A program made the position numbers and the translations under genes. The notes beneath the pieces are model-generated. The model saw nothing but the letters and a program-made list of their open reading frames with translations. It had not been told where the DNA came from and searched no databases. Below, one piece after another: positions 31,254 through 52,447 of a stretch of DNA of 64,000 nt. Source of the DNA: an uncultured virus (IMG/VR IMGVR_UViG_2814123274_000001). Taxonomy: Duplodnaviria > Heunggongvirae > Uroviricota > Caudoviricetes. Position 1 is the first letter of the stretch, and each line of letters starts with the position of its first letter. Location of the stretch: IMG/VR virus record IMGVR_UViG_2814123274_000001; one strand, given 5' to 3'.

Positions 31254-31748
31254 CTACGACAGCAGATCGGCGTACATCTTCTTGAGCAGCTCGTCGTTCT
31301 GCTTCATCAAGGCCGCGAAGTCATAAGCCGGAGGAGGCTTTGCCGCGGATGCCTGCTTTGTGGCCGAGGCAACGGTTTTTACAGCCTGCTGGACACCGCC
31401 GCCCGGAGACGGCCCGGGAGTCCGAAGCTGGCTGACCGACGTTGAGAAGACGGAGGCGCTCTTTTGAAGCTGCCCCACAGCCCGTTTCCCCTGCTCCGCC
31501 TTTGCGGCAAGCTCCGCCGCCTTTTTCGCCCCGTGCCGTTTTACCAGATAAGCGGTGAGAACGATTCCTGCGGCTGCCGCCGCTCCCACGGCCGCTTTTC
31601 CGGCTGCGGGCAGCTTCTTCCGCTCGGTTCTATCCTCACCGCCGTACCGTTTCCGGCCCTGGGGCGTCAAGCTTCCGTCCTTCTGCTGAAATCTCCGCAC
31701 GCCCCACTTCATCCCACGGATGCCATAGTGCTGCAAAATATCTGACAA
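31254..31748 (-). CDS. HYG..GMKWGVRR-motif protein (putative head cargo)
   Basis: N-terminus MSDILQHYGIRGMKWGVRRFQQKDGSLTPQGRKRY; one hydrophobic segment. Confidence 0.75.
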   Translation of the reverse strand: MSDILQHYGIRGMKWGVRRFQQKDGSLTPQGRKRYGGEDRTERKKLPAAGKAAVGAAAAAGIVLTAYLVKRHGAKKAAELAAKAEQGKRAVGQLQKSASVFSTSVSQLRTPGPSPGGGVQQAVKTVASATKQASAAKPPPAYDFAALMKQNDELLKKMYADLLS

Positions 31749-31813
31749 TCGCGGTCACCTCCTGTCTGTGATAAAATTTGTAACAACTGCCCCGTGTGTA
31801 TCGAATTTAGGTC

Positions 31814-31846
31814 AAAAAAACCACAGACTCGGTTAAGAGTCTGTGG
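31814..31846 (-). terminator. Rho-independent terminator
   Basis: Perfect 10-bp stem CCACAGACTC/GAGTCTGTGG plus T7 on the minus strand. Confidence 0.75.
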
Positions 31847-31863
31847 TGAGGCGTTTCGCCGCT

Positions 31864-31892
31864 TTAACAGGGTGAATGCTGTGTAGTATAAT
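31864..31892 (+). promoter_or_regulatory. Sigma-A-type promoter, antisense to the late operon
   Basis: TTAACA-17 nt-TATAAT, followed by a hairpin at 31906-31948. Confidence 0.55.
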
Positions 31893-31972
31893 GCGGTAAA
31901 AAGTGGCCGCCAGTAGCGTCTGACTCGCACTCAAACGTTACTGGCGGCGCAGTGGAAAGAAGGACGGAGAAT

Positions 31973-32125
31973 ATGAAACCCAATGAAAAGACAATAATCC
32001 TCGATCACAACACCCTATTCGATCTCGCCGTTAAATCTGCTTATGTCATAGCAAAAACATTGGATGAACGGTATGCCGATGGGGATCGGCCGGAAGTCAC
32101 GCCGGTTATTCACTGGTATCATTGA
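31973..32125 (+). CDS. Small hypothetical protein (50 aa)
   Basis: MKPNEKTIILDHNTLFDLAVKSAYVIAKTLDERYADGDRPEVTPVIHWYH, preceded by AAGGACGGAG and the promoter. Confidence 0.45.
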   Translation: MKPNEKTIILDHNTLFDLAVKSAYVIAKTLDERYADGDRPEVTPVIHWYH

Positions 32126-32249
32126 TTCCGATAGGAGGAGGTCGGCGCCATGCCGCTCTCTTTTCTTCTTTCCTGTAAAAACCGATGGTCGACCATCGGA
32201 AATTACCAAATGTAGTCATAAAATCCGCAGGGCCCGGTTAAAAACTGCG

Positions 32250-32834
32250 TCAATGAGCATAGTACGCCCGCAGCTTTCTGTTCTCGCTGATGGCCTTTCC
32301 AGCGAGCAAAGCGTTCACGATTGTTCCGCCCACTGCGATAGCTGAGCCCGCAAGTTGTGCCGTCCGCTGGTCTTCCATCCCCTTGGATAAGAGTGAACTT
32401 ACCGCACGGGAACCAACTACTATGGCCGCTTCCGCTAAATAAGCAGTTCGGGTATTCCCGGTAATGGTCTTGCCGCGCTGATAAAGTTTCTTGCCTTCAT
32501 CCGCTAACTTGTCGGTCTTCAGTTTACCATAGGCATCTTCCATCCGACGTTTTTCGGTTTTGACGGCCCGATTAGCGTCCTTGACCCGCTGCCGGGTAGC
32601 CTGCCCGGATTTATGGGCGGCTTTCGTTTCTGCCGCTTTTGATTTGGCACGTTCATAGTCCGATTCGGCTTTGCGATAGCGCTCCAGTCCTTTTCGGGTA
32701 TAGGAACCGTCATAGTTCTGATAACGCCTGACGCCCCATTTCATGCCCTTGACTCCATAATGGGCAAGGCAATCCTGGGGAGAAGGTTTCTCATAGGGCT
32801 TCACAAGTACCCCCCCCCTTTTTTTTTTACTCAA
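32250..32834 (-). CDS. HYG..GMKWGVRR-motif protein (putative head cargo)
   Basis: DCLAHYGVKGMKWGVRRYQNYDGSYT near the N-terminus; basic helical body; start uncertain (GTG ~32804 possible). Confidence 0.75.
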   Translation of the reverse strand: MSKKKRGGVLVKPYEKPSPQDCLAHYGVKGMKWGVRRYQNYDGSYTRKGLERYRKAESDYERAKSKAAETKAAHKSGQATRQRVKDANRAVKTEKRRMEDAYGKLKTDKLADEGKKLYQRGKTITGNTRTAYLAEAAIVVGSRAVSSLLSKGMEDQRTAQLAGSAIAVGGTIVNALLAGKAISENRKLRAYYAH

Positions 32835-34575
32835 ATGCTTCCGGGTTGTGTTTATAGGCGACGTAGGCGTCCATCATGGCCGCCACCGCGTCGATCTTCT
32901 GGTCAGACCGCTTTTTCAGCAGCTTGCGGTTGCCGTTGGTGTCCTCCATCGTGATGCAGTTGCCCATAGAGAAGGTGATCAAGTCCTCGTCAAAGAGCAG
33001 CATCCGCTCTCCGGCCAGCTTCTTCAGCTCGCCCAGGGGGACGGATTCCGTTCTCGCTCCCTGCCGGACCACCTCGACCCCAAACGAGCCGTTCTCATTG
33101 ACCCAGCGTTCCACAAATTCCTTGGCGTTGTAGGGGTCATATCCAAAGCAGCGCACATCGTAGCCGCAGTTGATGACGTGGTCGTCCAAATCCTCATAGA
33201 CCTGCATCATGTCGAGAACTGTCCCCTCCATGACGATCAGGCTGCCCTCTGCCATAAAGTCCTCGTACTTGACCCGCATGGCGGCGGGGAGCTTATGGAG
33301 CGTCACCGATGTGATGTAGTTGCGCGACTTAACGCCAAAGGACCCATCCCGAAGAGGGAACAGGAACGTAAAGGAGCAGAAGTCGTCGCCCTGGGAGAGA
33401 TCAGCGCCCATGGAGCAGGGCATCTGCCAAAACCGCTGCCGGCGGTGTGGCAAAGTCTCCTCGTAGGTGAAGTAGTAAGTGTATCCCTCCATAGGAAGGC
33501 CGAACCGCTTGGCCAGCATATCATTCCGTGTGGCGGGGGCGGTTTCCGCCCGGTCCACATCCTTCTGGTAGGTCTCATAGGTGACGGTCTTTCCCAGATT
33601 CGGGTTGGCCTTAGGCCACATATCAGGGTAGGCCACCTCCTCAACAGAGTCCAGCTTGTACCACCAGATGGAAACATGCTCCTGCGGAGGCCCGATGCCC
33701 TGGAGAATGTTCATCAACTCCATTTTGATGGTATCGCCGGCGCCATTACGAACCGTACCCTCGGAACTGGTCGCTATAATAAGGTAGTCGTCCAGCTTGG
33801 AGGCGCCCTGCTCCACCGCGCCGATAACGTCCTCCCGGGCGTCGGCGGAGGACAGCCACTCGTCCACGGTAGCCACTTTGCAGCGCAGACCCTGGAGCTT
33901 GTCCACCGACATGGGACGGATTTCGACCAGGGAGCCTGAAATGAAATTCTCAATGCCCTTCTTGGTAGAGGCCAGCTTCACCCGATTGGCCCGGGACCCG
34001 GTGGTGTTCTGCAAAGACCCCTCGGTCATGAACTGGAAGACGGGGCCTCTGGCCCGGGTGATGGCGGTCTTGATGGGGTTGATGATCTCCTCGGCCTGCT
34101 TCATGGTGGGGGCCGTGGTGATCTGATGAGTGGTGGAGCCGTCCACAACACAGAAGTATGCCTGAATGCAGGAATCGTAAAGCGACTTCGCCGCGCCTCT
34201 CCCCACGATCAGGTACTGCTTTTTGGTCAGCCGCTGCTTGATCCGCTTGGTCACATAGCGTCCGCCTCTGCCGTCCGGATTGGGCACATAGACAGAGCGG
34301 TCGTCGAAATAGTACCAGCCAAACACCTGTTCCCCCCAAAGCTTGAAGGTATCCAGAAGATGCAGGTCGGAACCGTCGGTCAGGGTCAGCTCGTTCTCGC
34401 AGAACTCGATCCAGCCCTCTACCGCCCTGTCGTCATAGTAGTAGCTGGGCGACTCGATCAGCCGGTCGATCCGGTACATCTCCATGGCAACTTCCTTGCA
34501 GACCGGAATATCGCCGCGGATGACCGCATCGCGGAATGCGCCGTAGTAACGGGGGACGGCGGTGTTGGATAACAT
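32827..34575 (-). CDS. terL: Terminase large subunit
   Basis: Walker A-like VGRGAAKS, Walker B VATVDEW, nuclease GADLSQGDDF and KIDAVAAMMDA. Confidence 0.95.
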   Translation of the reverse strand: MLSNTAVPRYYGAFRDAVIRGDIPVCKEVAMEMYRIDRLIESPSYYYDDRAVEGWIEFCENELTLTDGSDLHLLDTFKLWGEQVFGWYYFDDRSVYVPNPDGRGGRYVTKRIKQRLTKKQYLIVGRGAAKSLYDSCIQAYFCVVDGSTTHQITTAPTMKQAEEIINPIKTAITRARGPVFQFMTEGSLQNTTGSRANRVKLASTKKGIENFISGSLVEIRPMSVDKLQGLRCKVATVDEWLSSADAREDVIGAVEQGASKLDDYLIIATSSEGTVRNGAGDTIKMELMNILQGIGPPQEHVSIWWYKLDSVEEVAYPDMWPKANPNLGKTVTYETYQKDVDRAETAPATRNDMLAKRFGLPMEGYTYYFTYEETLPHRRQRFWQMPCSMGADLSQGDDFCSFTFLFPLRDGSFGVKSRNYITSVTLHKLPAAMRVKYEDFMAEGSLIVMEGTVLDMMQVYEDLDDHVINCGYDVRCFGYDPYNAKEFVERWVNENGSFGVEVVRQGARTESVPLGELKKLAGERMLLFDEDLITFSMGNCITMEDTNGNRKLLKKRSDQKIDAVAAMMDAYVAYKHNPEAFE

Positions 34576-34594
34576 CGGTTCACCAGCCTCCCAA

Positions 34595-35113
34595 TTACTT
34601 GCCGTTCAATTTCTTGATTGCCAAAGCAATGCTTAACGCGGATGCGGTCATGCCCAAGACAACCTCCGCCGCGTTTAAGGAGGTCCTAAAGAATTGACGG
34701 CCTTTAGAAACGCTACTTTCCGACACCTCTGCAAAGAGCTGATTATACTGCCGCTCCAGAAGCTCCCGGTTGATCTTATCCCGCATCTCCTTGTCGGTCA
34801 TCTTGCTCAGATCCATCCGTTTCGGAGTCGGCTTAGAAGTAGCACTCTGTTCAATTTTCTTCGCTTCCCGTACAAGATTTGAACTTGCATCTACAACCTG
34901 CTTAGAGCGCTCCAAGTCCTCCTGAGCCCAGCGCCGCGGATCAGGATTGGAAGTATCAATGCGGTTCTCCTTCTTCTTAGCCGCGTTTTCCCGCTTATCC
35001 CGGTCATAGCGTTTTTCACCGGCGGCGGTCAGGGTGCCGTCTTTGTTCTGGTAGCGGCGGACGCCCCACTTCATGCCTTTGATGCCGTAGTGCAGGAGCA
35101 TGCTATTCTCCAT
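34595..35113 (-). CDS. HYG..GMKWGVRR-motif protein (putative head cargo)
   Basis: MENSMLLHYGIKGMKWGVRRYQNKDGTLTAAGEKRY; hydrophobic C-terminal helix. Confidence 0.8.
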   Translation of the reverse strand: MENSMLLHYGIKGMKWGVRRYQNKDGTLTAAGEKRYDRDKRENAAKKKENRIDTSNPDPRRWAQEDLERSKQVVDASSNLVREAKKIEQSATSKPTPKRMDLSKMTDKEMRDKINRELLERQYNQLFAEVSESSVSKGRQFFRTSLNAAEVVLGMTASALSIALAIKKLNGK

Positions 35114-35489
35114 CTTGACTTTCCTCCTTCCCGCTGGTGTTCTTCACGGGGTCCGCTGCAACAAAAAGCCGCCACTCAAACTCGCTGATCTGCCGGTTGA
35201 TGGACTCAATGGCAGCGGAGCTGAGAGGCGGGTCAAATAACAACCGAACCTTCATGTAAACGTAGGATTTGACTAAGGAAAAGATGTTCGGCTTATCCTG
35301 AATAAATCCGGACCAGACTTCATCTTTTCCTGAGATTGAGAAACCGTTGGCAGGTCCAACGCCCATTTGCGTCAGGATGGAAAACACGCTGTTGATGTGG
35401 ATGATAATGTCCGGGTCAAAGTGCGTGTAGCTCTCGTCGATGCCCAACAGTTTCTTGATTGATATCAGGATGCTTTCGGAAATCTCCAT
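35103..35489 (-). CDS. Head-tail connector-like protein
   Basis: SILISIKKLLGI...FD.DIIIHINSVFSIL.QMG...VRLLFDPP; gp6-like size. Confidence 0.65.
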   Translation of the reverse strand: MEISESILISIKKLLGIDESYTHFDPDIIIHINSVFSILTQMGVGPANGFSISGKDEVWSGFIQDKPNIFSLVKSYVYMKVRLLFDPPLSSAAIESINRQISEFEWRLFVAADPVKNTSGKEESQDGE

Positions 35490-35499
35490 AACAGCCTCC

Positions 35500-35712
35500 T
35501 CACCGGCGGACTGCGATGAACTTCTTCATGCAGTACCCCTGGGTGCCGTTGGAGGTCGATACTTTATAGAAAGCATCTGTTGACTCGTCCATATTGACGG
35601 AAACTCTGGTCAGAGCCGTAATGACTGTAAGGACTTTGGAATTTGCTCTCGGCTCTTGATAAAGCGCCGCTCTCAGACAATTCGTCACAACACCGGCAGC
35701 ATGATTCTCCAT
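35500..35712 (-). CDS. Small SH3-like protein
   Basis: LYQEP..NSKVL...FYKV.T..G.QGYCMKKFI resembles bacterial SH3. Confidence 0.5.
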   Translation of the reverse strand: MENHAAGVVTNCLRAALYQEPRANSKVLTVITALTRVSVNMDESTDAFYKVSTSNGTQGYCMKKFIAVRR

Positions 35713-35727
35713 ATCGAGTCCTCCTTT

Positions 35728-36144
35728 CTACTTTTTCCAAGGACAGGTATCATTGGGTCTGCGTGTAATCGGCTCCTTGAACAACCGGTTCTCGTCGCCG
35801 TAATGGATGGCCAGATGCGTCTCATGAATTGTGGTGATCAGAAACTCGGGATCGAGGATCATCCCTCTTCGCTCCCGAATGTCCTCCGGGCGGATTGGGT
35901 TCATGTGGTGGATGAGTGGCCGACGGTAAATCTCCCGTCCGGCAATTCCCAAATCACACCCCATGTCCCGGGCAATCACAACATCCCGGATCTGCTTCCA
36001 CTCCGTGGAGCGATAAAAGACCTGATTCATGTACCGGTCAAAGCCGAAGGTCTCCTCTCCGACAGCACCGTTCAAACGAAGATAGCGGTAGCGCTCCTCG
36101 AAGGTGGGGAGAAGGATCAATTCCGAGTAACATCTAATACTCAT
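35728..36144 (-). CDS. HNH endonuclease (packaging-associated)
   Basis: FYRSTEWKQIR..VIARD..CDL...IHHMNP...THLAIH; start ATG 36144. Confidence 0.8.
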   Translation of the reverse strand: MSIRCYSELILLPTFEERYRYLRLNGAVGEETFGFDRYMNQVFYRSTEWKQIRDVVIARDMGCDLGIAGREIYRRPLIHHMNPIRPEDIRERRGMILDPEFLITTIHETHLAIHYGDENRLFKEPITRRPNDTCPWKK

Positions 36145-37202: not shown

Positions 37203-39923
37203 TTACTCATTGAGATACTTGGAAACAACAGAAGATGAAAGGTTCAGAGCATCAGCGATCTCGGCATTGGTACAGCCAGAGTTTGCCATTGCCTTGATGC
37301 GATTGATACGAGCAGTCGACAACTGCGTTGATGCTCTTGGGGTTGCGCGTTCCCGGATGACATCGGGATCAGAGTAACGAAGAATCTCTTTCAAGGTTGT
37401 ATCAGAGATTGCGCCAGCCTGAATTGCTTCCCATTCTCCATCAGAGATTGTAATGCGCGTTCCTTTCCCGCTTGCTCCAGTCGTCACACGAGCATCGCTA
37501 ATTGCGGAGCGACGAATCTTTGAGATTTCATCTTTGTCGGTAATGTTGTTGGCCTGAATCTTTGCCTTAACCTGCGCATTGGCAATACGCTGAGCCTCAC
37601 GTTCACGAGGAGCGTTAAGCTGAGCAGTCTTCAACGCACTGGTCAATCTGGTAACTTCAGGCGCATAAGCCTTTGCTGCACTGGCATTACGAACCAACGT
37701 GGGCGTCGCTAAGTATTCAAGCCTTGCCCGATTGGCAAGTGCTTTCATACGATTTGCGTAGTCAGCATAGGCATCTTCCTGGACAGTGCCGGAAGACAGG
37801 GTCCGAACATCGTCGACCTTCTCCAAGAGCTTAATCTTTGTCGTGGCCGGAACTGTTTTACCAGACTTCGGGTCCACATAAGTACGCCCGGATTCCTTGT
37901 AGATGACCTTTCCCGTCTCCTTGTCGATACGGCCGCTGCCCTGACGCTCCGGAACGTCGACGCTCTGCTTCCGTCTGGAGAGCAGGGTGGAGGCCCCACC
38001 CACTTCCTTTCCGGTTTCGGGGTCCGTGTACCCTTGCCACCGTTTGCGGAGGGTGGGGATGTCGTTCTCTACTTCCGACCGCTTATAGTCAAGCTTATGC
38101 TTAGCCGCATCGATGACCACCATGCTATGCTTGACGGCCTTAGTGATTTCCTCCTCGGGGGCCCCTTTTAAGGTCATATCCGTGATGAGGTTGGAGATTT
38201 TACCCATCTCTATCTGGGTGGCGGCTTTTGAGAGGAGCCGGACACCAGTCTTCCCCTCGGTGGAGTATTCAACTTTTGGGTCGAAATCCTTCAAACCATC
38301 TAGGACGGGGGTGGATTTCACCGACACCTTTCCGCCCACGGGGATGACCACCGCCTGGTCGCCGTCAAAGTCCGCTCCGGACAGTCGCTCCGCCACCTTC
38401 GGATTGATGCCGACGGCGTCACGGATGTTCTTGCCCAGGATTGAGATCGCCGACTGATTTTTATTGTTGACCGTCAGCTCCGGGATTTCAAACGTGCCCC
38501 CGTGGGGGTAACGAATCAGAACGACTTTCTCTCCGTTCCGGTAGTTGGGGGCATAGATCTCCGTCTCCTTCATTTTTGTGATGGGGAGGATCACTTGTGT
38601 ACTCTGCCGGGGGAGGGCCGCCGCTTTCAAATGGACAACTGCGGAATCACATTCGTCTGCAAAGTCCATCAGCAACTTCCGCTTGATGGTGGGGTTATTT
38701 AGAGAGCAAATTTCCGCGAATTCATCGGCGGCATCGGCATAAGTCAAGTCGAGCTGCTTCTGAATCAACTTGATGGGCTGCTTAGAAAGGAACTGGGAGG
38801 ATAAGTTCTTACTCATCTTATCCCAGTCTCCCTCTTCCTTCAGCTTGTTGATGGCGGACAGAGACTTCTTTTCTCCGGTGATGGGGTCTGTGTACTTGCC
38901 ATGTGGGTCGGGGTAGTAACTCTGGCCATTGGCCTTGATGAACGCACCAAAAGGGTTATCGGGGTCTTCCTGAATTTTCTTCATGACGTCCATCTTTGGC
39001 GTTCCGGAATGTTTGTTCGTGTTGAACACGATGTCTGCACCATCCGGCATATCATCAGAATACATGGCCATGCCCTTCAGGTAGTGGGTCCCGTCCACAA
39101 GGATGCGAACCTGAGCATAGTGAGAATCCCCTAAGTCGAGGTCTGCCACACCACGGCGAAGTTCAATAACGCCATCCTTGGAGGTGCCACCTTCGTCGCC
39201 ATAGCGGATCTTCACCCGACCGGAATCAATGCTGGCCGGGTATTCCCGCTTATCCCAAGACGCACCTCCATCGGCAGAGTGATAGTCGCCTACCGACTTG
39301 ATGATGTCCAGGTTCTGGTAAGCATCACGCTGCTCAATGTCAGGAACGGAGATAACCGGCGTGATAGTCCGTTTCTTCGGGTCGTTTACCTGAGGGACGC
39401 CGACACCATAGCGGTTATAGCCCTCGGTCTCCAGAATGAATAGAGCCTCCTGGAGCACGCCTTTGGAAACGCCAAGCTGCTGCTCCACACCTTCGCCCAC
39501 GTCAAGAGCCCCTTTGACCGCCAGCTCCTTCTTCAGAGCCTCGGCGGTGGCAAGAGCCTTGTTTTTATTGCTCGCGGTGTTCTCATTGAGCAGGGCACGG
39601 ACAGAGGAGTCATTATTGTACCCCATGATCTTGGCAATCTTGTCCAGCGTCTTCCCCTCTTCTCGAAGGGACTTGGCTCTCTCTGCCTGTAAGGCACGCC
39701 GTTCATGTTTCGCCACACGAACCTGCATACGGAGATCGGTGGTAGACATCTTCAGCTCCTCAGCAATTTCCTTTTGAGATTTGCCAAGCGCCTCAAGTTC
39801 TTCCACACGGGCCAGGAAGTCTCCGCCGTGTTGATAAGGGTTCTCGCCAGAACCCCAGGGGTAGCGCCCAGAGCGCCTCTTGACGCCATAGTGCATCAAA
39901 ATATCATCCACAATGGGGTCCAT
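37203..39923 (-). CDS. Single-chain two-barrel RNA polymerase-like protein (YonO/cellular RdRP-like) with HTH domains and an HYG N-terminus
   Basis: LSGADFDGD catalytic loop (DFDGD at 38358-38372), upstream VVLIRYP, AQVR......YLKGM; two N-terminal and one C-terminal HTH-like segments. Confidence 0.8.
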   Translation of the reverse strand: MDPIVDDILMHYGVKRRSGRYPWGSGENPYQHGGDFLARVEELEALGKSQKEIAEELKMSTTDLRMQVRVAKHERRALQAERAKSLREEGKTLDKIAKIMGYNNDSSVRALLNENTASNKNKALATAEALKKELAVKGALDVGEGVEQQLGVSKGVLQEALFILETEGYNRYGVGVPQVNDPKKRTITPVISVPDIEQRDAYQNLDIIKSVGDYHSADGGASWDKREYPASIDSGRVKIRYGDEGGTSKDGVIELRRGVADLDLGDSHYAQVRILVDGTHYLKGMAMYSDDMPDGADIVFNTNKHSGTPKMDVMKKIQEDPDNPFGAFIKANGQSYYPDPHGKYTDPITGEKKSLSAINKLKEEGDWDKMSKNLSSQFLSKQPIKLIQKQLDLTYADAADEFAEICSLNNPTIKRKLLMDFADECDSAVVHLKAAALPRQSTQVILPITKMKETEIYAPNYRNGEKVVLIRYPHGGTFEIPELTVNNKNQSAISILGKNIRDAVGINPKVAERLSGADFDGDQAVVIPVGGKVSVKSTPVLDGLKDFDPKVEYSTEGKTGVRLLSKAATQIEMGKISNLITDMTLKGAPEEEITKAVKHSMVVIDAAKHKLDYKRSEVENDIPTLRKRWQGYTDPETGKEVGGASTLLSRRKQSVDVPERQGSGRIDKETGKVIYKESGRTYVDPKSGKTVPATTKIKLLEKVDDVRTLSSGTVQEDAYADYANRMKALANRARLEYLATPTLVRNASAAKAYAPEVTRLTSALKTAQLNAPREREAQRIANAQVKAKIQANNITDKDEISKIRRSAISDARVTTGASGKGTRITISDGEWEAIQAGAISDTTLKEILRYSDPDVIRERATPRASTQLSTARINRIKAMANSGCTNAEIADALNLSSSVVSKYLNE

Positions 39924-41105: not shown

Positions 41106-41131
41106 CCATAAAGGGGACTGTATTTTCAGCG
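41106..41131 (-). promoter_or_regulatory. Conserved motif copy 2
   Basis: CGC-TGAAAATA-CAG-TCCC-CTTTATGG. Confidence 0.6.
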
Positions 41132-41497
41132 GAAATGAAAAGAGCAGTCAACAACACTAGCGATCAAACATCTGATCAACAAAATCCGAATATATATATT
41201 GATCAGGTTGCCTCTCGCATATCCACCTAAAAGGCCCACAAAGGCTTTTCCTTTTGCTGTCTGCATTTTCGATATGTCCTTCACCAACCCCTCCCCCATA
41301 ATTCTACCATAGCTAGCTTTGAGGCTGGCCTTAGCGAACCCTCGACCAAACTCATTTACATTTTCTGAAAAAGAGCGTTTTGATTCAGATGCTCTATACC
41401 GTTTTCTCCCAGCAGGAGTTAGGGTTCCGTCTTTGTTCTGGTAACGGCGGACGCCCCACTTCATGCCTTTCACACCATAATGCACTAAATATTCCAT
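41126..41497 (-). CDS. HYG..GMKWGVRR-motif protein outside the head module
   Basis: MEYLVHYGVKGMKWGVRRYQNKDGTLTPAGRKRY; lower-GC body; C-terminus may be degenerate. Confidence 0.7.
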   Translation of the reverse strand: MEYLVHYGVKGMKWGVRRYQNKDGTLTPAGRKRYRASESKRSFSENVNEFGRGFAKASLKASYGRIMGEGLVKDISKMQTAKGKAFVGLLGGYARGNLINIYIRILLIRCLIASVVDCSFHFR

Positions 41498-41527
41498 AGA
41501 TTATCAACTCCTACTTCGATTTTAGTT

Positions 41528-41566
41528 AAAAAAAACGAACTGCCTTCATAATCTGAGACAGTTCGT
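41528..41566 (-). terminator. Rho-independent terminator
   Basis: ACGAACTG/CAGTTCGT stem plus T-run. Confidence 0.7.
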
Positions 41567-41573
41567 ATCCTCC

Positions 41574-41599
41574 CCATAAAAGAGTCTGTTTTTTTTCGA
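41574..41599 (-). promoter_or_regulatory. Conserved motif copy 3 (degenerate)
   Basis: TCG-AAAAAAAA-CAG-ACTC-TTTTATGG; flanks also resemble copy 1 (GCTGTTTT upstream). Confidence 0.5.
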
Positions 41600-41875
41600 A
41601 ATAGAAAACAGCGGTAAAAATTCAATCCGTTCTGTTATAGAACAAAAAGAGAGTCGTTCACTTGACGGATTAGTAAGCTGGCTTATTTTTCACCTTTATC
41701 ATCGGTGGGTCGTTTGCACTTTCCGGTATTGTGCTTCCGCGCCGACCTAGCCTACTTCGTCCAGCGCAACAATTAAACTTTTGAACGATACCATTCAATC
41801 GTATATTGCTGGAAAGCTTACTATTAGCTTGCATATTCATGCACACAGACTTTCACTGCTATGTCCGTTTCCTCT

Positions 41876-41901
41876 CCATAATAGGAGATGTAATTCTTGC
41901 G
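41876..41901 (-). promoter_or_regulatory. Conserved motif copy 4
   Basis: CGC-AAGAATTA-CAT-CTCC-TATTATGG. Confidence 0.6.
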
Positions 41902-41925
41902 CATCACATAAAATGCGCTGAATTT

Positions 41926-42987
41926 TTATGAAATCTTCAAAAACACATCACCATCCTTGTTGAAATAATAATCTGTCCTTTTTTCTGGGGCCGCTAATGC
42001 GGAATGAAGAAGTTCTCTCAGAGAAGAAGACTCGGCAGTATTCAGGCGATCTACAATATCTCCGATTTTCCGAGTCTGATTTTCCAAAACTTCCTTGTCG
42101 GTTTTCTTGAAGATTCCGTCTTTATGGCTGGTCAAAGCCTGTTGCAGCATGCTAAAACTGGTAAGCATCCGTTTATCACATTTGTTGATGTAAGCAGTTG
42201 CTTCCTCCTCAATATACCTAAGGAATCCGTCATCATAGTTCTCGGAGTAGAACACCTCCAGCAATTCGCTCATGACATAAAGCTGCGTAGATAGTTCCAG
42301 AGAATCTTTTATCTGTGTGGCTTTTTCAACCGTTTCCAAAATATCAGTCTGCACCTTAGCGGTAACCGTCGAAACCAGATCAGCGAGATAGAACTCAATA
42401 TCTTTCATAGCGACTTTCCGGGCGCTCTGTAAGCTGACAATAGTCGAAAGCCTCTGCTGCTCATGCTCCATGATAGAGCCATAGTTTTCGTAGGCGAACC
42501 TAATGAAACTGATTTCCGACAACAACTCCGCCCGTTTGTCACCGTAAAGGAACTCGAGTATCTTGTCCAAGCTCAGCCTCATCATATTCAATTTGCCGTT
42601 GATCTCAGCCAAAAAATATTGTCCGGAGGCAATGGACATCGCTGTGAACGCGCCAAGACAGGCCGCTTGAATTGCGGTCTGCTCCAAAGCAGCTGTTCCT
42701 ACGATTTGACCCGTTTCTGGATTTTGAAGTGTCGTACTATACCCGCCTCGTTTTAACCGCATAAGCGTCCCTTGGACTCCCTCTGGAAACGATAGCACAT
42801 ATGATTGCGATAACGTACTCACCCCCAAAAGCGAGGGAGCCGCGCCAAGCAGCGCATTCACTTGCGCTCTTTGATCTCGCGTTAATTTCAATTTGGTAAA
42901 TCGCTTTCCATCAGTCAAATCTATTGCGGTATCGCAAGGCTTTACATCGAATCTCCCTACCCGAGTCAATTCGTTTTCTTCTCCCAT
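41926..42987 (-). CDS. Moron-like hypothetical protein (~353 aa)
   Basis: AAAGGAGG RBS before ATG 42987; lower GC; has its own sigma-A promoter and structured leader. Confidence 0.75.
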   Translation of the reverse strand: MGEENELTRVGRFDVKPCDTAIDLTDGKRFTKLKLTRDQRAQVNALLGAAPSLLGVSTLSQSYVLSFPEGVQGTLMRLKRGGYSTTLQNPETGQIVGTAALEQTAIQAACLGAFTAMSIASGQYFLAEINGKLNMMRLSLDKILEFLYGDKRAELLSEISFIRFAYENYGSIMEHEQQRLSTIVSLQSARKVAMKDIEFYLADLVSTVTAKVQTDILETVEKATQIKDSLELSTQLYVMSELLEVFYSENYDDGFLRYIEEEATAYINKCDKRMLTSFSMLQQALTSHKDGIFKKTDKEVLENQTRKIGDIVDRLNTAESSSLRELLHSALAAPEKRTDYYFNKDGDVFLKIS

Positions 42988-47524: not shown

Positions 47525-47548
47525 GTTTTTTCTCCTCTTCCGCAAATA

Positions 47549-47944
47549 TCAAGGGCCAATTTCAGCGATGGACTCCACGAAGCAGTTGTAATAGGTATAG
47601 CGCTTTCCTTCATAGTCAAAGAGCACATAGCCGCCGTCATTACCCTCAATATCAATCTTCCCGGTGTATTGCGCGATGATTTCCCCATCGGCCGTATAGA
47701 TCGTCACCGTCCGTTCGAGTCCATTGTCTAAATCGCTTTTCTGATCCGTCAGGGCTCGCTGGCCAGATGCGGTGTTCTGGAAGTACCAGCGCATACCGAA
47801 GAACAATCCCAAAATCAGCAGAATGGCAACCACCACACTGATAATCTTTCCGGGGACGTTCTCAATCAGACATGCGCCCGCGATGCCGGCACATAAAATG
47901 AATGCCGCGAATAATACAAAGGCAATCCAACCACCAATAGTCAT
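47549..47944 (-). CDS. Two-TM membrane protein
   Basis: Two N-terminal hydrophobic helices. Confidence 0.7.
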   Translation of the reverse strand: MTIGGWIAFVLFAAFILCAGIAGACLIENVPGKIISVVVAILLILGLFFGMRWYFQNTASGQRALTDQKSDLDNGLERTVTIYTADGEIIAQYTGKIDIEGNDGGYVLFDYEGKRYTYYNCFVESIAEIGP

Positions 47945-48123
47945 GCTTTTTTCTCCTCTCCAACAAGTTTCCGATACAGTTCTTCGGCCTCTTTGCCTTG
48001 AAACTGGTTGATGATGCGAACATTATCGCCAGGTGCTTTCCGCCCGACGATCAATATCGCGGGGTCGCCGTGGCTGTGGTCAAAGCCGACCAAAACCGTG
48101 TCAAAATCTTTCACAGTACCCAC
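47941..48123 (-). CDS. Hypothetical protein
   Basis: Co-directional 60-aa ORF overlapping the next start. Confidence 0.55.
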   Translation of the reverse strand: MGTVKDFDTVLVGFDHSHGDPAILIVGRKAPGDNVRIINQFQGKEAEELYRKLVGEEKKA

Positions 48124-48226
48124 CTCACAAAGTCAAAGAGTAATTTCGCAAGGAATAGAAGACCAATGATAGCCAGGACCAAAACAGCATTGAATAGAAA
48201 ACGCAAAATATCATCCCAGCCATGCT

Positions 48227-49261
48227 TCATTTTTTCTTCACCCGCTTGGCCTTTCTCTCCTCGTACTCGGCCTTCTCGATGGGGACCATCTTACCGTCCT
48301 CTTCTTTGAAGTAACGGTTCAGCTCGATCCGCTTATCGTCGGGTGTGAGAATATAAAGGTAAGCGAAGGTATCATAGTCGCCGTTCTTTGGGTCAACCAG
48401 GAAGTCCTCGGAGAAGACGCGATACTTCTTGGTAGAGGGCAGATAGGGCATGGTAATAGGGAAGATCGTGTCGATAAGACGAGTCATCATCCCATTACTA
48501 AACGCCGCACTAGGATAGTTGACGTTGATACCGCAAACCCGGTTTATATCGGAATAAGTAGCCGTCCCGTCCGGAGCGATTTCTTTGAACAGGGAGAACA
48601 TACGTTTACACTGGTACTTCTGATACCCTTCTTTCCAGCTACACTCGCCGGTGATATCGCTCCAAATATCCGGAGTGTCTTCGATGGGGGTCAGACACTT
48701 ACCATCGACCAGGCGGTTTAGAATGCTCTTGGTGATCTGGATACTGAATCCGGAGTGGCCATCTCGGGCCAGCGTTTGATAAGCCCGAAGGGCGCTCTCA
48801 TAGCAGAGCACGCCATAGGCCCAGTCGTCCGTGCCTTTCGAAGCCTCCCGCTCACTCTGACAGGCAAGGGCAACCTCCCGAGCAGCCCAGGAATCTTCTT
48901 CCTCGGCCATGTAGACCGCCCGGTCATCCCAATACTCATTGGCAAATATCTTTCTGGTATCGCCCCCAAAGGCCTTGATGATCTCCGGCAGATTCTCATT
49001 GACCGCATCCAAGTGGATGCCCTGCTCCTTACAGAAGTTCACAGCATCGTCCAGAGGCTTATCCCGCCGGTTGGTCCAAAGAATGACCTTGGCGCCATTA
49101 GCCTGCTCTTGCTTGAGCCTGGAGATGGTCTTGTTGATCGGTTCGCCGACCTCCGGAAATTTGTTCGTGGCCAGGCAGCCGTCGAAATCCACCGCGATGA
49201 TCTTCGGCCGGGACTCTTTGTTTTCCGTAGTCTCAACTGCTTTTACATTCATCTCGTCCAT
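48227..49261 (-). CDS. HAD-like domain fused to an unknown domain
   Basis: IIAVDFDG, ILWT.R, KIFA.EYWDDR motifs; unrelated C-terminal half (GHSGFS, YQCKRMFSLFK). Confidence 0.7.
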   Translation of the reverse strand: MDEMNVKAVETTENKESRPKIIAVDFDGCLATNKFPEVGEPINKTISRLKQEQANGAKVILWTNRRDKPLDDAVNFCKEQGIHLDAVNENLPEIIKAFGGDTRKIFANEYWDDRAVYMAEEEDSWAAREVALACQSEREASKGTDDWAYGVLCYESALRAYQTLARDGHSGFSIQITKSILNRLVDGKCLTPIEDTPDIWSDITGECSWKEGYQKYQCKRMFSLFKEIAPDGTATYSDINRVCGINVNYPSAAFSNGMMTRLIDTIFPITMPYLPSTKKYRVFSEDFLVDPKNGDYDTFAYLYILTPDDKRIELNRYFKEEDGKMVPIEKAEYEERKAKRVKKK

Positions 49262-49294
49262 GTGTGTTTCTCCTTTTCAAAATATCAAGATGTT

Positions 49295-49573
49295 TTACAG
49301 TCCACGAAGTTTGTTAATGGCTCTTTGTGCTGCTCCATTTCCGTTATCCCGATCGTAGAGCCATTCTTCAAAGCTGTCGTCATTGCTCAGATCCACCTTC
49401 ATGACTCGACCTTTGAGGTAATCGAAGTGAGTGCTCGTTTTCAAAAGATCCTCAGCCTCCTCCTCAGTCATCGGAGCAGGATCGAAATGCAGAAACCCCA
49501 ACCCTTGCGGCTTAGAATCGTTATAAAGTGCTGCCAGAACAGCGGACTTTTTTAGACCTTTTGTATCAACCAT
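49295..49573 (-). CDS. Hypothetical phage protein
   Basis: VLAALYN.SKPQGLG...FDYLKGRVMKVDL...LYDRDNG. Confidence 0.65.
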   Translation of the reverse strand: MVDTKGLKKSAVLAALYNDSKPQGLGFLHFDPAPMTEEEAEDLLKTSTHFDYLKGRVMKVDLSNDDSFEEWLYDRDNGNGAAQRAINKLRGL

Positions 49574-49598
49574 AGCGTTTTTTCTCTTTTTCAAAATA

Positions 49599-49814
49599 TC
49601 AATCAGTAATGGTGAGTTCGCTAAGCGAAACTGTTGTCAGTGTGCCGTCCGGTCGCTTGATAACCGCCTTGTTTGCGAAGAGTCCAACGCCGAGCTGTAA
49701 AATATCAACCTCTTCACGTCGCACTCGCTTACACTCGGCACAGCTTTCAGGGGTTATCCAATCCATGTCGATGCAAGGGGTGCAACTTATCGGTCTGTTA
49801 TAAATCCCTTTCAT
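49599..49814 (-). CDS. Hypothetical protein
   Basis: AAAGGAG RBS before ATG 49814; two CxxC. Confidence 0.55.
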   Translation of the reverse strand: MKGIYNRPISCTPCIDMDWITPESCAECKRVRREEVDILQLGVGLFANKAVIKRPDGTLTTVSLSELTITD

Positions 49815-49837
49815 ACTGCTCCTTTCCAGAAAATATA

Positions 49838-49882
49838 AATGCCCCGAACTGCTGTTACACAATTCGAGGCATTCTTTTTTTT
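49838..49882. terminator. Hairpin terminator after rtcB, possibly bidirectional
   Basis: AATGCC.CGAA/TTCG.GGCATT stem with T-rich flanks on both strands. Confidence 0.6.
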
Positions 49883-49891
49883 GTATTTGAT

Positions 49892-51094
49892 TTAATCCGA
49901 GGCTTTGAAGTTGTAAACGGGGCGTATGCGCTCCACGATGATTGCGGTGGGACCGATTTGGGAGACGATCTCATCTATGCTCTTGTAGGCCATCGGTGAT
50001 TCATCCAGGGTGTCGGGCACTACGCAAGTTGTGTAGATGCCCTTCATCTCATTTTGGAACTCCTCCATAGAGAGGGTATTGAGCGCCGCACGACGGCTCA
50101 TAAGGCGTCCGGCTCCATGTGGGGCAGAGCAGTTCCAGTCTTCATTTCCAGTGCCAATGCAGATCAAGCTACCGTCCCGCATGTTGATAGGGATGAGCAA
50201 CTTTTCTCCCTTCTTGGCAGAAACAGAGCCCTTCCGAAGAATCATGGCATCCGTATCAATGTAGTTATGGATAGTGGTGAAAATATCCACGGCAGTGAGA
50301 CCCATACCATTCAGGATAACGTCCACCATGGCTTTTCGATTGAGTACGGCGAACTGCTGTGTCAACTTCATATCGTGGATGTAGTCGTCAAACAGCTTGC
50401 CCTCCACATAGGCGAGGTCTTTGGGAATATCCAGCTCATGTTCCTTCTTCAGCGCCGTAATGATCTTCTGGATCTCCTGGAGCCGTCCTTCAACTTTGAG
50501 CTTTGCGATGGCCTCCTGGATCTGATGCTTGGCTCCGCCCCAGAGTGCGCGGCGTCCCTCATTCTGATAGTAGTCGGCCACTTCCGTTCCGAGGTGCCGG
50601 CTCCCGGAGTGAACGACCAGAAACAGCCGTCCGTCCCCGGCTTGGTCTATCTCAATAAAGTGGTTGCCGCCGCCCAAAGAACCGATGCTGCGAACCGCTC
50701 GGTCAAGGTTGACCTGGTCAGCACACCGAAGCTGGGTCAAGTCAATTTTGGAGTTGAGGGAGTGGGGGATATCGCGGATTTCCCAGCCATAGGGAATCTT
50801 CTCCCGAATCAGCGCATCCAGCTTAGCGAAGTCAATCTCACGCTCGGCCAGCTCCACCGTCTCCATTCCGCAGCCAATATCCACGCCCACCATACCGGGG
50901 ACGATTTTGTCCTGGATGGTCATGGTGGTGCCGATGGTACAGCCCTTTCCGGCGTGAACATCAGGCATGATGCGGATTTTACAGCCTGCAAACTCAGGCC
51001 GGTCGCAAACAGCTTGAATCTGTTCCCGAGCCGCTCCTTCCAGCTCATTGGTGTAGCAAATAGCAGTGTTGTATTGCCCTTGAATAGTTATCAC
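49892..51094 (-). CDS. rtcB: RtcB-family RNA ligase
   Basis: MPDVHAGKG, VGVDIGCGM, GSLGGGNHFIE, HSGSR, HNY, SAPHGAGR, DESPMAYK. Confidence 0.95.
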   Translation of the reverse strand: MITIQGQYNTAICYTNELEGAAREQIQAVCDRPEFAGCKIRIMPDVHAGKGCTIGTTMTIQDKIVPGMVGVDIGCGMETVELAEREIDFAKLDALIREKIPYGWEIRDIPHSLNSKIDLTQLRCADQVNLDRAVRSIGSLGGGNHFIEIDQAGDGRLFLVVHSGSRHLGTEVADYYQNEGRRALWGGAKHQIQEAIAKLKVEGRLQEIQKIITALKKEHELDIPKDLAYVEGKLFDDYIHDMKLTQQFAVLNRKAMVDVILNGMGLTAVDIFTTIHNYIDTDAMILRKGSVSAKKGEKLLIPINMRDGSLICIGTGNEDWNCSAPHGAGRLMSRRAALNTLSMEEFQNEMKGIYTTCVVPDTLDESPMAYKSIDEIVSQIGPTAIIVERIRPVYNFKASD

Positions 51095-51118
51095 AGTTTT
51101 TCTCCTTTCCTGCGAGAT

Positions 51119-51349
51119 TTAGAAGTCCAAATCAGTCACATCGCCCCAAATATCCGTCAGCGATCTTCCGTCAAAGAGTTCGTCATTCAAAACCTCATCG
51201 ACAGAGCTGACAGAAAAGGCATCGTCTCCGCACCATACCTCAAATAGATTTTTCGCCAGAGGATCAATGCCGCAGGAGAAACCGTTATAGATGAAAGTGA
51301 CATGACCGACCAAATTGGTAAGATGGTCTTTAAGTTCCTGAATCGTCAT
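51119..51349 (-). CDS. Small acidic protein, possible orphan immunity protein
   Basis: 76 aa, very acidic; second small gene after the toxin-like ORF. Confidence 0.55.
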   Translation of the reverse strand: MTIQELKDHLTNLVGHVTFIYNGFSCGIDPLAKNLFEVWCGDDAFSVSSVDEVLNDELFDGRSLTDIWGDVTDLDF

Positions 51350-51355
51350 AAAATA

Positions 51356-51514
51356 TCAATCCTCCACAATTTCAAAGTTCTCCGGAGGATACAGATAGTC
51401 TTCGCCGCTGTCATCGACCAGCCTATACCAGCCCTTTTCCACGCTAAGAACGGTATAGACCTTATCGTGCGTAAGCACCAAGAACTCAGTTTTGCCTTTC
51501 CAGCGTACTTTCAT
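51356..51514 (-). CDS. Small protein, putative cognate immunity protein (52 aa, absent from the ORF track)
   Basis: MKVRWKGKTEFLVLTHDKVYTVLSVEKGWYRLVDDSGEDYLYPPENFEIVED; GGAGG RBS; starts 3 nt after the upstream stop. Confidence 0.7.
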   Translation of the reverse strand: MKVRWKGKTEFLVLTHDKVYTVLSVEKGWYRLVDDSGEDYLYPPENFEIVED

Positions 51515-51517
51515 GTC

Positions 51518-52447
51518 TCAGTCCTCCCATTTCTTAATTTTGAATTTGTGCTTACCGACCGAAGGCTCTTGGAACCAATGAACTTCTGCATCGATTTCCT
51601 CACCATGATAGTCAATAGTTCCTATGCCTTTACAATGTTGCCATTCATCAGGTTCTCCACCGATTTGCTCGGATAAGCCTTCTGCGACTTCGGCATTTAG
51701 CGGTTTGCTGGCACCTTTTCCAGCAAAGACTTGTGCGTCTCGGATGCGAGTTCCTTCTGAAAAGTGAAAATATTCTCCGGATTCAGGGTCTAACACATCA
51801 TAATTTTTGCTTTTGGCTCCGACGCTTTTTCCAATCTCTATGTCCGCTATTGTATCAGATTTTTCGCTTTTATCAAGCGGATACGGCGGCCCATTGCGAA
51901 CACCCCATTTCTGACCTTTAATGCCGTGATGAGCCAGGACATTGAAACCCAGCCGGCCCCGGAGTTCCCAAAGAATATCCTCCACGATCTGCCGGGTTTT
52001 GGGGTGAAGTTTGATGTAGGCCTGGTGGTCATCATACCAGGAGAAGATCTCGCTCAAGTTACCTTTCTCCCAGCTGAAGGCCCACCAGTCGCAGATCATC
52101 TCAATAATATAATTGTAGGGCATCTCCAATAGGACTTCGCCTTCACCGGGGTCGTCATTGATCAGAACCCAATGTTGCCAGTGGTGCGGGTTGCGGTGGA
52201 TATGTAGAAGCCAAGCCCGATTAAACGCCTCCACAATGGCGTGAGAGCGGTTGCCGCCGTAGAAGTAAGCGTCATAGGCCTCATACTCGTCGGGGTTTGA
52301 CTTGGAGGCGTCGTGTTCAAATTCGGTTTGCCAAGCGGCACTCGGTCGGCCTTCAAACAGCCAAGGCATATTGGTCTTAAGCCAATCAAAGCCCTTTTGG
52401 ACATTCGCCTTGTGTCTTTGCAAATATAAATCGTATTGTTGACTCAT
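51518..52447 (-). CDS. HD-like (DUF5662-like) domain + internal HHGIKGQKWGVR motif + putative C-terminal toxin domain
   Basis: N-terminal RHK..V, EHD.SK, H.HRNPHHWQHW, EMICDW; linker VLAHHGIKGQKWGVRNGPPYPL; C-terminal WQHCKG...AEVHWFQE...KHKFKIK. Confidence 0.7.
   Translation of the reverse strand: MSQQYDLYLQRHKANVQKGFDWLKTNMPWLFEGRPSAAWQTEFEHDASKSNPDEYEAYDAYFYGGNRSHAIVEAFNRAWLLHIHRNPHHWQHWVLINDDPGEGEVLLEMPYNYIIEMICDWWAFSWEKGNLSEIFSWYDDHQAYIKLHPKTRQIVEDILWELRGRLGFNVLAHHGIKGQKWGVRNGPPYPLDKSEKSDTIADIEIGKSVGAKSKNYDVLDPESGEYFHFSEGTRIRDAQVFAGKGASKPLNAEVAEGLSEQIGGEPDEWQHCKGIGTIDYHGEEIDAEVHWFQEPSVGKHKFKIKKWED

What the first reader, a model, noticed from the sequence alone, without database searches (positions are those of the whole stretch)
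31254..52447. Shared HYG..GMKWGVRR tag on six unrelated proteins: candidate capsid cargo-loading/delivery system
Seen: near-identical ~30-aa N-termini on 31254..31748, 32250..32834, 34595..35113 and 41126..41497; a variant (LMHYGVKRRSGRYPWG) starting the RNA polymerase-like protein; and an internal variant (LAHHGIKGQKWGVRNGPPYPL, ~51870-51940) before a toxin-like domain. The sequences after the tag are unrelated. Three copies flank terminase and portal. Inference: the peptide is a modular address label that loads diverse cargo (polymerase, membrane-active helical proteins, toxin) into the head for injection, analogous in function to the T4 capsid-targeting sequence or MuF-linked toxins. I recall similar peptides in other phages as unannotated domains but know of no assigned function.
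Basis: partly seen in the sequence, partly recalled or inferred. Interest (0 to 1): 0.9.

Follow-up and report, generated by a model that had tools for sequence, protein, structure and literature searches.

The report
Head-loading tag on phage cargo proteins
A gut phage puts one short peptide in front of unrelated proteins, including swappable toxin-like tips and, in altered form, its RNA polymerase, and this peptide most likely marks them for packing inside the virus head, where a histidine-recognising protease trims them, though no experiment has yet shown this.

Summary
Observation confirmed. The tag is Pfam DUF7211 (no known function), found only in the phage lineage of Lactococcus phage 1706 and Oengus ('Sisseviridae') wherever context was seen. 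Five full copies and one half copy (RNA polymerase) lie in the window; the bodies are unrelated. The tag opens with L-x-H. The same site studs the spacer of the protease-capsid precursor (349 of 417 His, against 34 of 353 in the capsid domain), and the last one falls where the mature HK97 capsid begins. The depositors of phage 1706 label both of its tagged proteins 'structural protein'. The 51518 gene behaves as a polymorphic toxin: four interchangeable tips, each with its own downstream small gene; the window's tip sits on MuF in 25 of 60 relatives and on the tag in 6. Natural polyproteins chain 3-7 tagged units with extra His sites between them. Best reading: T4-like head loading and trimming with His specificity, replacing MuF (0.55); that the proteins are virion cargo at all, about 0.8. 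Binding partner, cutting and injection are untested. This scan found the tag and the L-x-H link before on other DNA. New variant of a known kind; interest 0.72.

The parts
28106..30010 (-). Prohead protease (S78) - spacer - HK97-fold capsid precursor, 634 aa. The spacer (about residues 126-298) has five His, all L/M-x-H; the last (His298, 29117-29119) abuts the mature capsid domain.
   Evidence: Pfam Peptidase_S78; model and fold search; His43 and Ser92 invariant in 71 of 71
29994..31250 (-). Portal; L-x-H at residue 14
   Evidence: Pfam Phage_portal; L/I-x-H at this place in 55 of 78 unique portal N-termini that matched the anchor motif
31254..31748 (-). Tagged basic protein, 164 aa, between terminase and portal
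   Evidence: DUF7211 39.3 bits; net charge +17, one hydrophobic 19-mer
32250..32804 (-). Tagged basic protein between terminase and portal (ORF called from 32834; probable start 32804)
   Evidence: DUF7211 49.3 bits; start codon compared in relatives
32827..34575 (-). Terminase large subunit (untagged; context)
   Evidence: Pfam TerL_ATPase and TerL_nuclease
34595..35113 (-). Tagged basic protein, 172 aa, between the connector gene and terminase; of the window's four small tagged proteins, the one with most relatives in the loci fetched
   Evidence: DUF7211 41.7 bits; 66 of 69 unique homologous ORFs are tagged
37203..39923 (-). Single-chain two-barrel RNA polymerase homologue (DFDGD at residue 518) with the variant tag L-x-H-Y-G...P-W-G
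   Evidence: PHROG 4291; motif in 66 of 73 unique long homologues, 3 more keep a divergent hydrophobic-x-His start and 4 are cut by contig ends; 1706 orthologue labelled structural protein
41126..41497 (-). Tagged basic protein, 123 aa, in an accessory insert (about 41146-42980)
   Evidence: DUF7211 42.8 bits; insert missing from the nearest relatives
51518..52447 (-). DUF5662 - internal tag (His173) - exchangeable C-terminal tip; polymorphic-toxin architecture
51356..51514 (-). 52-aa ORF, candidate cognate immunity protein of the window's tip
   Evidence: Follows this tip type, and not the other tip types, in the loci printed; no Pfam hit
51119..51349 (-). 76-aa ORF, candidate orphan immunity gene: in relatives it directly follows a different tip
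   Evidence: tip type of L244, 16 ORFs

Best explanation
The peptide is a cargo code for the phage head. Tagged proteins (short acidic leader, L-x-H, conserved Y/H-G-I/V-K-G-M/Q-K-W-G core, basic body) are bound into the assembling prohead through the tag. The protease carried on every capsid precursor then cuts after His in hydrophobic-x-His sites: in the spacer, freeing the capsid protein; at the portal N-terminus; between units of tagged polyproteins; and probably at the tag's own L-x-H. The trimmed proteins stay with the DNA and enter the next cell, giving it an RNA polymerase for early transcription and a fast-changing set of host-takeover, counter-defence or toxin domains. In this lineage the tag does the job that the MuF domain does elsewhere. 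SHOWN (sequence and models): shared tag, lineage restriction, L-x-H enrichment, coincidence with the mature capsid start, tip exchange with MuF and portal. FROM A DATABASE LABEL: virion presence of both tagged proteins of phage 1706. INFERRED: cleavage after His, binding by the tag, inside location, ejection, toxicity. The binding partner is unknown; my first guess is the protease/spacer part of the precursor, because the tag begins with that protease's presumed substrate motif.
For: (1) Spacer His are L/I/M-x-H in 349 of 417 cases, against 34 of 353 in the capsid domain, 93 of 389 in the protease domain and 38 of 269 in long window ORFs (71 precursors under 90% identity). In 20 precursors under 80% identity that include cultured phages: 105 of 128 against 6 of 105. 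(2) The last spacer His is such a site in 69 of 71, and model residue 299 aligns with residue 104, the first of the mature HK97 capsid chain (1ohg, Z 17.0, rmsd 3.8, 265 aligned). (3) Original GenBank record of 1706: orf7 (two tags) and orf75 (polymerase) are both 'structural protein'; 15 of 76 genes carry virion-type labels, p 0.037. (4) 266 of 282 tagged ORFs in loci holding terminase and portal lie between them or within 3 kb upstream of terminase. (5) The window's tip is C-terminal on MuF1 in 12, MuF2 in 13, portal in 1 and DUF7211 in 6 of 60 relatives scanned; L050 is a portal-tag-tip fusion; no MuF was found in the window or in 310 sequences held. (6) The best 120 of at least 7833 tagged proteins carry 3-7 tags; 328 of 331 internal tags keep L/I/M-x-H, and 162 of 287 stretches before internal tags hold an extra His-(Ser/Ala/Gly), 9% expected (71 of 123 after dereplication). 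(7) Acidic short leaders and basic bodies resemble T4 internal proteins, described as basic with short propeptides (PMC9026906, passages).
Against: No experiment on the tag was found in print. The residue after the tag's His is bulky (His 59%, Tyr 31%), whereas spacer sites have small residues (Ser, Gly, Ala, Asn in 360 of 417), so the tag's own site may be cut poorly or not at all. The conserved part lies after the presumed cut, unlike T4, where the targeting sequence is removed. The polymerase shares only L-x-H-Y-G in profile alignment (11 columns, probability 90.6). The extra His sites in polyproteins are looser at position -2 (L/I/M 41%). The 51518 and 41126 genes lie outside the head operon. 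The 1706 evidence is two genes and a label, the paper itself was not available, and the same label sits on two untagged non-morphogenesis genes (orf62, orf71). The loci are related and were ranked by likeness to the window, so the counts are not independent.
Confidence: 0.55

Rival explanations
1. The proteins are head cargo, but the conserved core is not the address. Loading uses the acidic leader plus L-x-H, as in T4, and the core, left as the new N-terminus, acts later as a DNA-binding or portal-threading handle that brings the protein out with the genome.
For: The conserved core lies on the retained side of the site and is rich in Gly, Lys, Arg and Trp. Each unit of a polyprotein keeps its own core, though one address would suffice for loading. 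Other head-region genes start with L-x-H and a different motif.
Against: Leaders are short (median 8 aa) and variable. Internal tags follow unrelated domains (DUF5662, 2H phosphoesterase, portal) with no shared leader.
Confidence: 0.25
2. The tag is a docking motif used in the infected cell, not in the particle. Tagged proteins bind a shared phage or host complex (for example terminase or portal, shielding them from defence sensors), and the toxin-immunity pairs act as addiction or competition modules of the lysogen.
For: Genes cluster around terminase and portal and turn over fast among near-identical phages. The 51518 gene sits among accessory genes such as RtcB and a Tad3-domain gene. 140 of 148 representative cargos have no other Pfam family.
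Against: Both tagged 1706 proteins carry the structural label. It does not explain the L-x-H shared with the capsid spacer, the portal fusion, or tip exchange with MuF.
Confidence: 0.12
3. Tagged proteins are outer decoration or neck proteins that clip onto the finished shell through the peptide.
For: Compatible with a 'structural protein' label and with head-operon position.
Against: A polymerase and nuclease-type tips are useful only inside a cell, the bodies are strongly basic, and the L-x-H site points to the internal protease.
Confidence: 0.05
4. The repeat is a DNA-level recombination cassette or a chance similarity with no peptide function.
For: Tag DNA copies are 75-87% alike over 60-90 nt and could seed cassette swapping.
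Against: Synonymous positions have diverged while residues are kept, there are 0 hits in 100 shuffles, and the peptide is kept from Lactococcus to Streptomyces phages.
Confidence: 0.02

Closest known systems
Pfam DUF7211 (PF23847)
   Same: It is this tag: four window proteins pass the cut-off and one misses by 0.3 bit.
   Different: Listed as unknown function; the profile does not hit the polymerase variant; no paper in the library names it.
Phage T4 capsid targeting sequence, internal proteins IPI-III and Alt, prohead protease gp21 (PMC9026906, passages)
   Same: Short shared N-terminal peptide on small, basic, fast-changing proteins; a hydrophobic-x-P1 site shared by cargo, scaffold and capsid precursor; many redundant sites in the removed region.
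   Different: P1 is His, not Glu. The conserved part is retained, not removed. The protease is fused to an HK97-type capsid protein in a siphophage lineage with genomes of mostly 43-78 kb. Tags also occur internally and up to seven per chain. No sequence homology was tested or is claimed.
MuF polymorphic toxins of temperate phages (PMC5576092, passages) and MuF- or portal-fused effectors (PMC5512222, PMC9503650, passages)
   Same: Constant N-terminal part, variable C-terminal tip, small downstream ORF. Ntox50, named for MuF toxins in PMC5576092, occurs on tagged proteins, as do GNAT, 2H, papain-fold and DUF6883 domains. The window's own tip occurs on MuF1 and MuF2.
   Different: No MuF domain here; a peptide of about 15 residues stands in its place, and the toxin locus lies about 16 kb from the packaging genes.
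phiKZ and SPN3US ejection proteins and virion RNA polymerases (PMC10052503, PMC9026906, passages)
   Same: Head protease trims internal proteins at short motifs; a polymerase travels in the particle.
   Different: Those are giant myoviruses that cut after Glu and have multi-subunit polymerases; here a single 906-aa chain and, by inference, cuts after His.
1706/Oengus/actinophage supercluster, candidate family 'Sisseviridae' (10.1101/842583, PMC9723715, PMC10159846, passages)
   Same: Same conserved head block and DxDGD polymerase homologue.
   Different: The passages read describe the lineage and the polymerase, but not the tag, the His sites or virion packaging of the polymerase.

Membership tests
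Pfam DUF7211 | Score at or above the 27-bit gathering cut-off | tested here: met
   39.3, 49.3, 41.7 and 42.8 bits for the four small proteins; 51518 scores 26.7, and two relatives with the same N-terminal part score 28.4
Pfam DUF7211 | Polymerase N-terminus belongs to the family | tested here: inconclusive
   No Pfam hit; my tag profile gives a median of 7.6 bits on 47 polymerase N-termini against a shuffle 99th percentile of 3.5; hhalign joins only 11 columns
T4-type capsid targeting system | Short shared N-terminal peptide on divergent basic proteins | tested here: met
   Leader median 8 aa; bodies net basic in 96% of 473; 104 body clusters
T4-type capsid targeting system | Same protease motif in cargo and in the removed part of the head precursor | tested here: met
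   L/I/M-x-H in tags and in 349 of 417 spacer His; junction matches the mature HK97 start
T4-type capsid targeting system | Cleavage after L/I-x-E | tested here: not met
   The enriched motif ends in His, so this works like T4 but is not the T4 system
T4-type capsid targeting system | Conserved targeting information lies in the removed propeptide | tested here: not met
   Conservation lies after the His; the leader before it is variable
T4-type capsid targeting system | Peptide suffices to package and deliver a foreign protein | not testable with these tools
   Needs a reporter fusion
MuF polymorphic toxins | N-terminal MuF domain | tested here: not met
   No MuF Pfam hit in 88 window ORFs; no BLASTP hit of 25 or so MuF-type N-terminal parts in 310 sequences
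MuF polymorphic toxins | Exchangeable C-terminal tips on a constant N-terminus | tested here: met
   54 of 80 DUF5662 homologues are tagged; four tip types in 19, 16, 9 and 9 ORFs, plus one broken; Ntox50 and DUF6883 named by Pfam
MuF polymorphic toxins | Small ORF directly downstream, specific to the tip | tested here: met
   A different small ORF follows the representative of each of the four tip types; the window keeps an orphan from another type
MuF polymorphic toxins | Gene lies in the DNA-packaging module | tested here: not met
   51518..52447 is about 16 kb from terminase; other tag-tip fusions do lie there, such as L050
MuF polymorphic toxins | Tip is toxic and neutralised by the small ORF | not testable with these tools
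   The window's tip has no Pfam or fold match
HK97-type head with S78 protease | HK97 capsid fold and His/Ser protease | tested here: met
   Fold search Z 17-18 to HK97-type capsids over residues 299-621; Peptidase_S78 hit; His43 and Ser92 invariant (catalytic role recalled by analogy)
Virion-packaged RNA polymerase | DxDGD catalytic motif | tested here: met
   DFDGD at residue 518; family described in 10.1101/842583
Virion-packaged RNA polymerase | Present in particles and active on entry | tested here: inconclusive
   Only the depositor label 'structural protein' on 1706 orf75; activity untested
1706/Oengus lineage ('Sisseviridae') | Shared HNH-connector-terminase-portal-protease/capsid block and polymerase block | tested here: met
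   Polymerase 55% to Oengus, 251 records; capsid fusion 244 records in largely the same genera; gene order

The most novel reading that the evidence does not exclude
One roughly 15-residue code, read by a histidine-specific protease built into every capsid subunit, runs the whole protein-delivery system of a very common gut phage lineage. It loads a single-chain RNA polymerase, polymorphic toxins and counter-defence enzymes into a small siphophage head in place of MuF. Where genes have fused, it lets chains of up to seven tagged units be cut apart inside the head like a viral polyprotein.
Probability: 0.4. Interest if true: 0.87.

Novelty: new variant of a known kind. Interest (0 to 1): 0.72.

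Why it matters
It would give a function to a Pfam unknown with at least 7833 sequence clusters, in a candidate family reported in 80% of sampled infants (PMC10159846, passage). It would predict a head protease with His at P1, where the T4, phiKZ and SPN3US enzymes cut after Glu, and a particle-borne RNA polymerase in small siphophages. It would turn every tagged gene into a candidate injected effector, a ready list for finding counter-defence and antibacterial activities. It bears on the open question of how phage polymorphic toxins are delivered, and could give a protein-loading tag for phages of Gram-positive bacteria. Cultured members (1706, Arthrobacter, Gordonia and Streptomyces phages) make it directly testable.

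Tried and rejected
Literature: no paper with DUF7211, and none relevant with the motif strings or PF23847 (the one hit is a neurology paper). Searches for virion proteomics of this lineage found none (in the last four I read mostly listings). The 1706 paper is not held. Supplements were not read, and those of preprints are closed; they could hold proteomic lists. Sequence searches of solved structures gave nothing useful for the capsid precursor, a tagged protein or the polymerase. The tip's confident model (pLDDT 91) matched nothing: Foldseek had no hit at E 0.001, and the best wide-search Z was 5.2 to cystatin-like folds, which I treat as noise; this does not show a new fold. ESM Atlas gave only scores under 0.9. 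His enrichment at the C-termini of single tagged proteins was null (71 observed, 71.5 expected of 484). A DNA-repeat origin was rejected. A frame artefact for 51518 was rejected. No co-fold of the tag with protease, capsid or portal was obtained, so the partner is open. No own assembly is held. Genomic context is unknown for the 7833 database proteins; only 65 loci from 227 genome matches and 76 loci from at least 616 viral matches were inspected. The capsid gene was not found in three further genomes whose tagged contigs are short, which is uninformative. A look-up of earlier scan notes by the 51518 sequence, and by toxin/MuF/polyprotein words, returned nothing.
Full report
Observation. Four small proteins (31254, 32250, 34595, 41126) share 12-14 of 15 core residues plus a looser 17-residue extension. 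The 51518 protein has the core internally at His173, and the 906-aa polymerase has a variant sharing 4-6 of 15. The bodies are unrelated (best E 0.85), synonymous positions have diverged, and the core pattern never arose in 100 codon shuffles. The tag is Pfam DUF7211, function unknown. Small corrections: 32250 probably starts at 32804, 41126 sits in an accessory insert, and a 52-aa gene at 51356..51514 follows 51518.

What phage this is. The polymerase homologue finds 251 phage records and the protease-capsid fusion 244, in largely the same genera. This is the lineage of Lactococcus phage 1706, Faecalibacterium phage Oengus and several actinophage clusters, described in 10.1101/842583 (passages) and called 'Sisseviridae' in PMC9723715 and PMC10159846 (passages). 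A tagged protein as query hits 175 records, all within those genera or unnamed gut phages. Rhodococcus phage ReqiPepy6 has eight tagged genes around terminase, and 1706 has two.

Is the tag tied to this head module? Yes, as far as context could be seen. Of 141 loci fetched by the tag alone (65 from 227 genome matches, 76 from at least 616 viral matches, best-ranked only), 133 hold terminase, portal or capsid of this lineage and 138 hold some lineage marker. Two of the three without are short contigs; the third has capsid and polymerase further along its contig. The family is absent from 400 other sampled genomes of the phylum and from 14 controls. In loci holding both terminase and portal, 266 of 282 tagged ORFs lie between them or just upstream, and the set changes among phages whose terminases are 91-100% identical. 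Across all loci, 491 unique tagged ORFs have a short acidic leader, an almost fixed L-x-H and a basic body. Of 175 representatives I scanned 148; 7 hit toxin-type families (papain-fold 5, Ntox50 1, DUF6883 1) and 140 have no other family. Cultured phages add GNAT and 2H domains.

The His site. Earlier notes of this scan on other genomes pointed to L-x-H in the capsid precursor, and I tested that here. In 71 precursors under 90% identity, spacer His are L/I/M-x-H in 349 of 417 cases, against 34 of 353 in the capsid domain, 93 of 389 in the protease domain and 38 of 269 in long window ORFs; the last spacer His is such a site in 69 of 71. A set of 20 more distant precursors including cultured phages gives 105 of 128 against 6 of 105. 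The model shows an ordered protease, a mostly disordered spacer and an HK97 fold, and residue 299, right after His298, aligns with residue 104, where the mature HK97 capsid chain begins (that HK97 is cut just before 104 is recalled). The portal carries the site near its N-terminus in 55 of 78 cases, as do head-region genes of cultured phages. This is the pattern reported for T4 gp21, which cuts scaffold, capsid and internal proteins after L/I-x-E with redundant sites (PMC9026906, passages; PMC10052503, passages), but with His in place of Glu. Against a simple copy of T4: the residue after the tag's His is bulky while spacer sites have small ones, and the conserved part lies on the retained side.

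Polyproteins. A profile of the tag finds at least 7833 proteins; the best 120, which rank high because they have several tags, carry 3-7 tags in chains of up to 1872 residues. Internal tags keep L/I/M-x-H in 328 of 331 cases. The 37 residues before them hold an extra His followed by Ser, Ala or Gly in 162 of 287 unique stretches against 9% expected, and 71 of 123 after reduction to 42 proteins. The consensus H-S-D matches the commonest spacer site, though position -2 is looser. This fits cutting of fused cargo into units that each keep a tag. A test for His at the C-termini of single proteins was null.

Virion evidence. The original GenBank record of 1706 labels orf7 (two tags and further L-x-H sites) and orf75 (the polymerase) 'structural protein'. 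Counting portal, capsid and tail genes, 15 of 76 genes carry virion-type labels (orf23-58 seen only in the RefSeq copy); both tagged genes among them gives p 0.037. I recall that the paper identified 15 virion proteins by mass spectrometry, but could not read it, and two untagged non-morphogenesis genes carry the same label. This is the only evidence here that comes from outside sequence patterns, and it is thin.

The toxin locus. Among 80 DUF5662 homologues, 54 continue through the tag into one of four tips (19 Ntox50, 16 unnamed, 9 window-type, 9 DUF6883, 1 broken), each followed by its own small gene. The window's 51119 gene is the partner of another tip, left as an orphan. The window's tip has 725 relatives; of the 60 I scanned from the top 70, it is fused to MuF1 in 12, MuF2 in 13, VG15 in 2, portal in 1 and the tag in 6. 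One locus has portal, L-x-H, tag and tip in one chain (L050). No MuF was found in the window or in the 310 sequences held. MuF toxins are defined by a MuF domain, variable tips and small downstream genes in packaging modules (PMC5576092, passages), and MuF or portal fusions are read as head-packaged effectors (PMC5512222 and PMC9503650, passages). The tag therefore sits in MuF's slot, but this is not a MuF toxin. The tip's activity is unknown: no Pfam or fold match, with invariant Gly43 and His101 in 59 aligned sequences.

Mechanism and odds. Most likely the tag recruits cargo into the prohead, the capsid-fused protease trims at His sites, and the cargo leaves with the DNA (0.55). Next, the cargo is in the head but the core acts afterwards as a DNA or portal handle (0.25). 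A cytoplasmic docking role (0.12), outer decoration (0.05) and a mere DNA repeat (0.02) fit worse. The polymerase may use only part of the code, since profile alignment joins just L-x-H-Y-G. The binding partner was not tested.

Novelty. The tag is catalogued and the lineage is published; loading by a short peptide with protease trimming is known from T4 and giant phages. I found no paper that assigns a function to the tag or describes His sites in this lineage (the library lacks most subscription papers). This scan noted the tag and the L-x-H link on at least five other genomes; those notes are leads, not support. A look-up for the toxin, MuF and polyprotein aspects returned none. Verdict: new variant of a known kind, interest 0.72; the boldest reading has probability 0.4 and would deserve 0.87.

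Noticed in passing
window 2213..6646 (-): Diversity-generating retroelement: reverse transcriptase (2213..3418), template repeat 3610-3750 and variable repeat 3936-4076 at the C-terminus of a 912-aa Ig-domain protein; 16 of 17 differences are at template A.
   Followed up: partly
window 32810..32829 (-): An A10-G9 run between the terminase stop and the start of the tagged 32250 gene varies among relatives (A8-10, G6-10), which could tune translation of this cargo or be assembly noise.
   Followed up: partly
window 48227..49261 (-): Phosphatase-like N-terminus fused to a Tad3 (Thoeris inhibitor) domain, 96 bits.
   Followed up: no
window 49892..51094 (-): RtcB RNA ligase directly downstream of the toxin-immunity cassette; it could repair RNA cut by nuclease tips or host defences.
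   Followed up: no
window 57965..58753 and 59425..59754 (-): ADP-ribosylglycohydrolase and a stand-alone NAD-binding ligase N-terminal domain (Nlig-Ia), possible counter-defence genes.
   Followed up: no
window about 31880..32250: An insertion of about 310-370 bases between the two tagged genes, absent from many otherwise identical relatives.
   Followed up: no
L085:7441-8052, L086:13878-14474, L088:9644-10378: In actinophages the gene between portal and capsid, MuF's usual place, starts with L-x-H followed by a different motif (Y-D-P-x-K-A); the window lacks this gene.
   Followed up: partly
L106:3356-6334, L143:2668-5646, L153:137-3238: A polymerase subgroup replaces H-Y-G by hydrophobic-x-H-S/T-G plus an insertion before the S-G-R-Y/F-P-Y-G part, keeping the His site.
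   Followed up: no
L111 (G403:C117): Here five tagged genes lie after the tail and lysis genes rather than beside terminase, and the capsid precursor frame is 816 aa.
   Followed up: partly
window 1..288 (-): ParA/Soj-type ATPase fragment at the window edge (AAA_31), hinting at plasmid-like maintenance or a host boundary.
   Followed up: no
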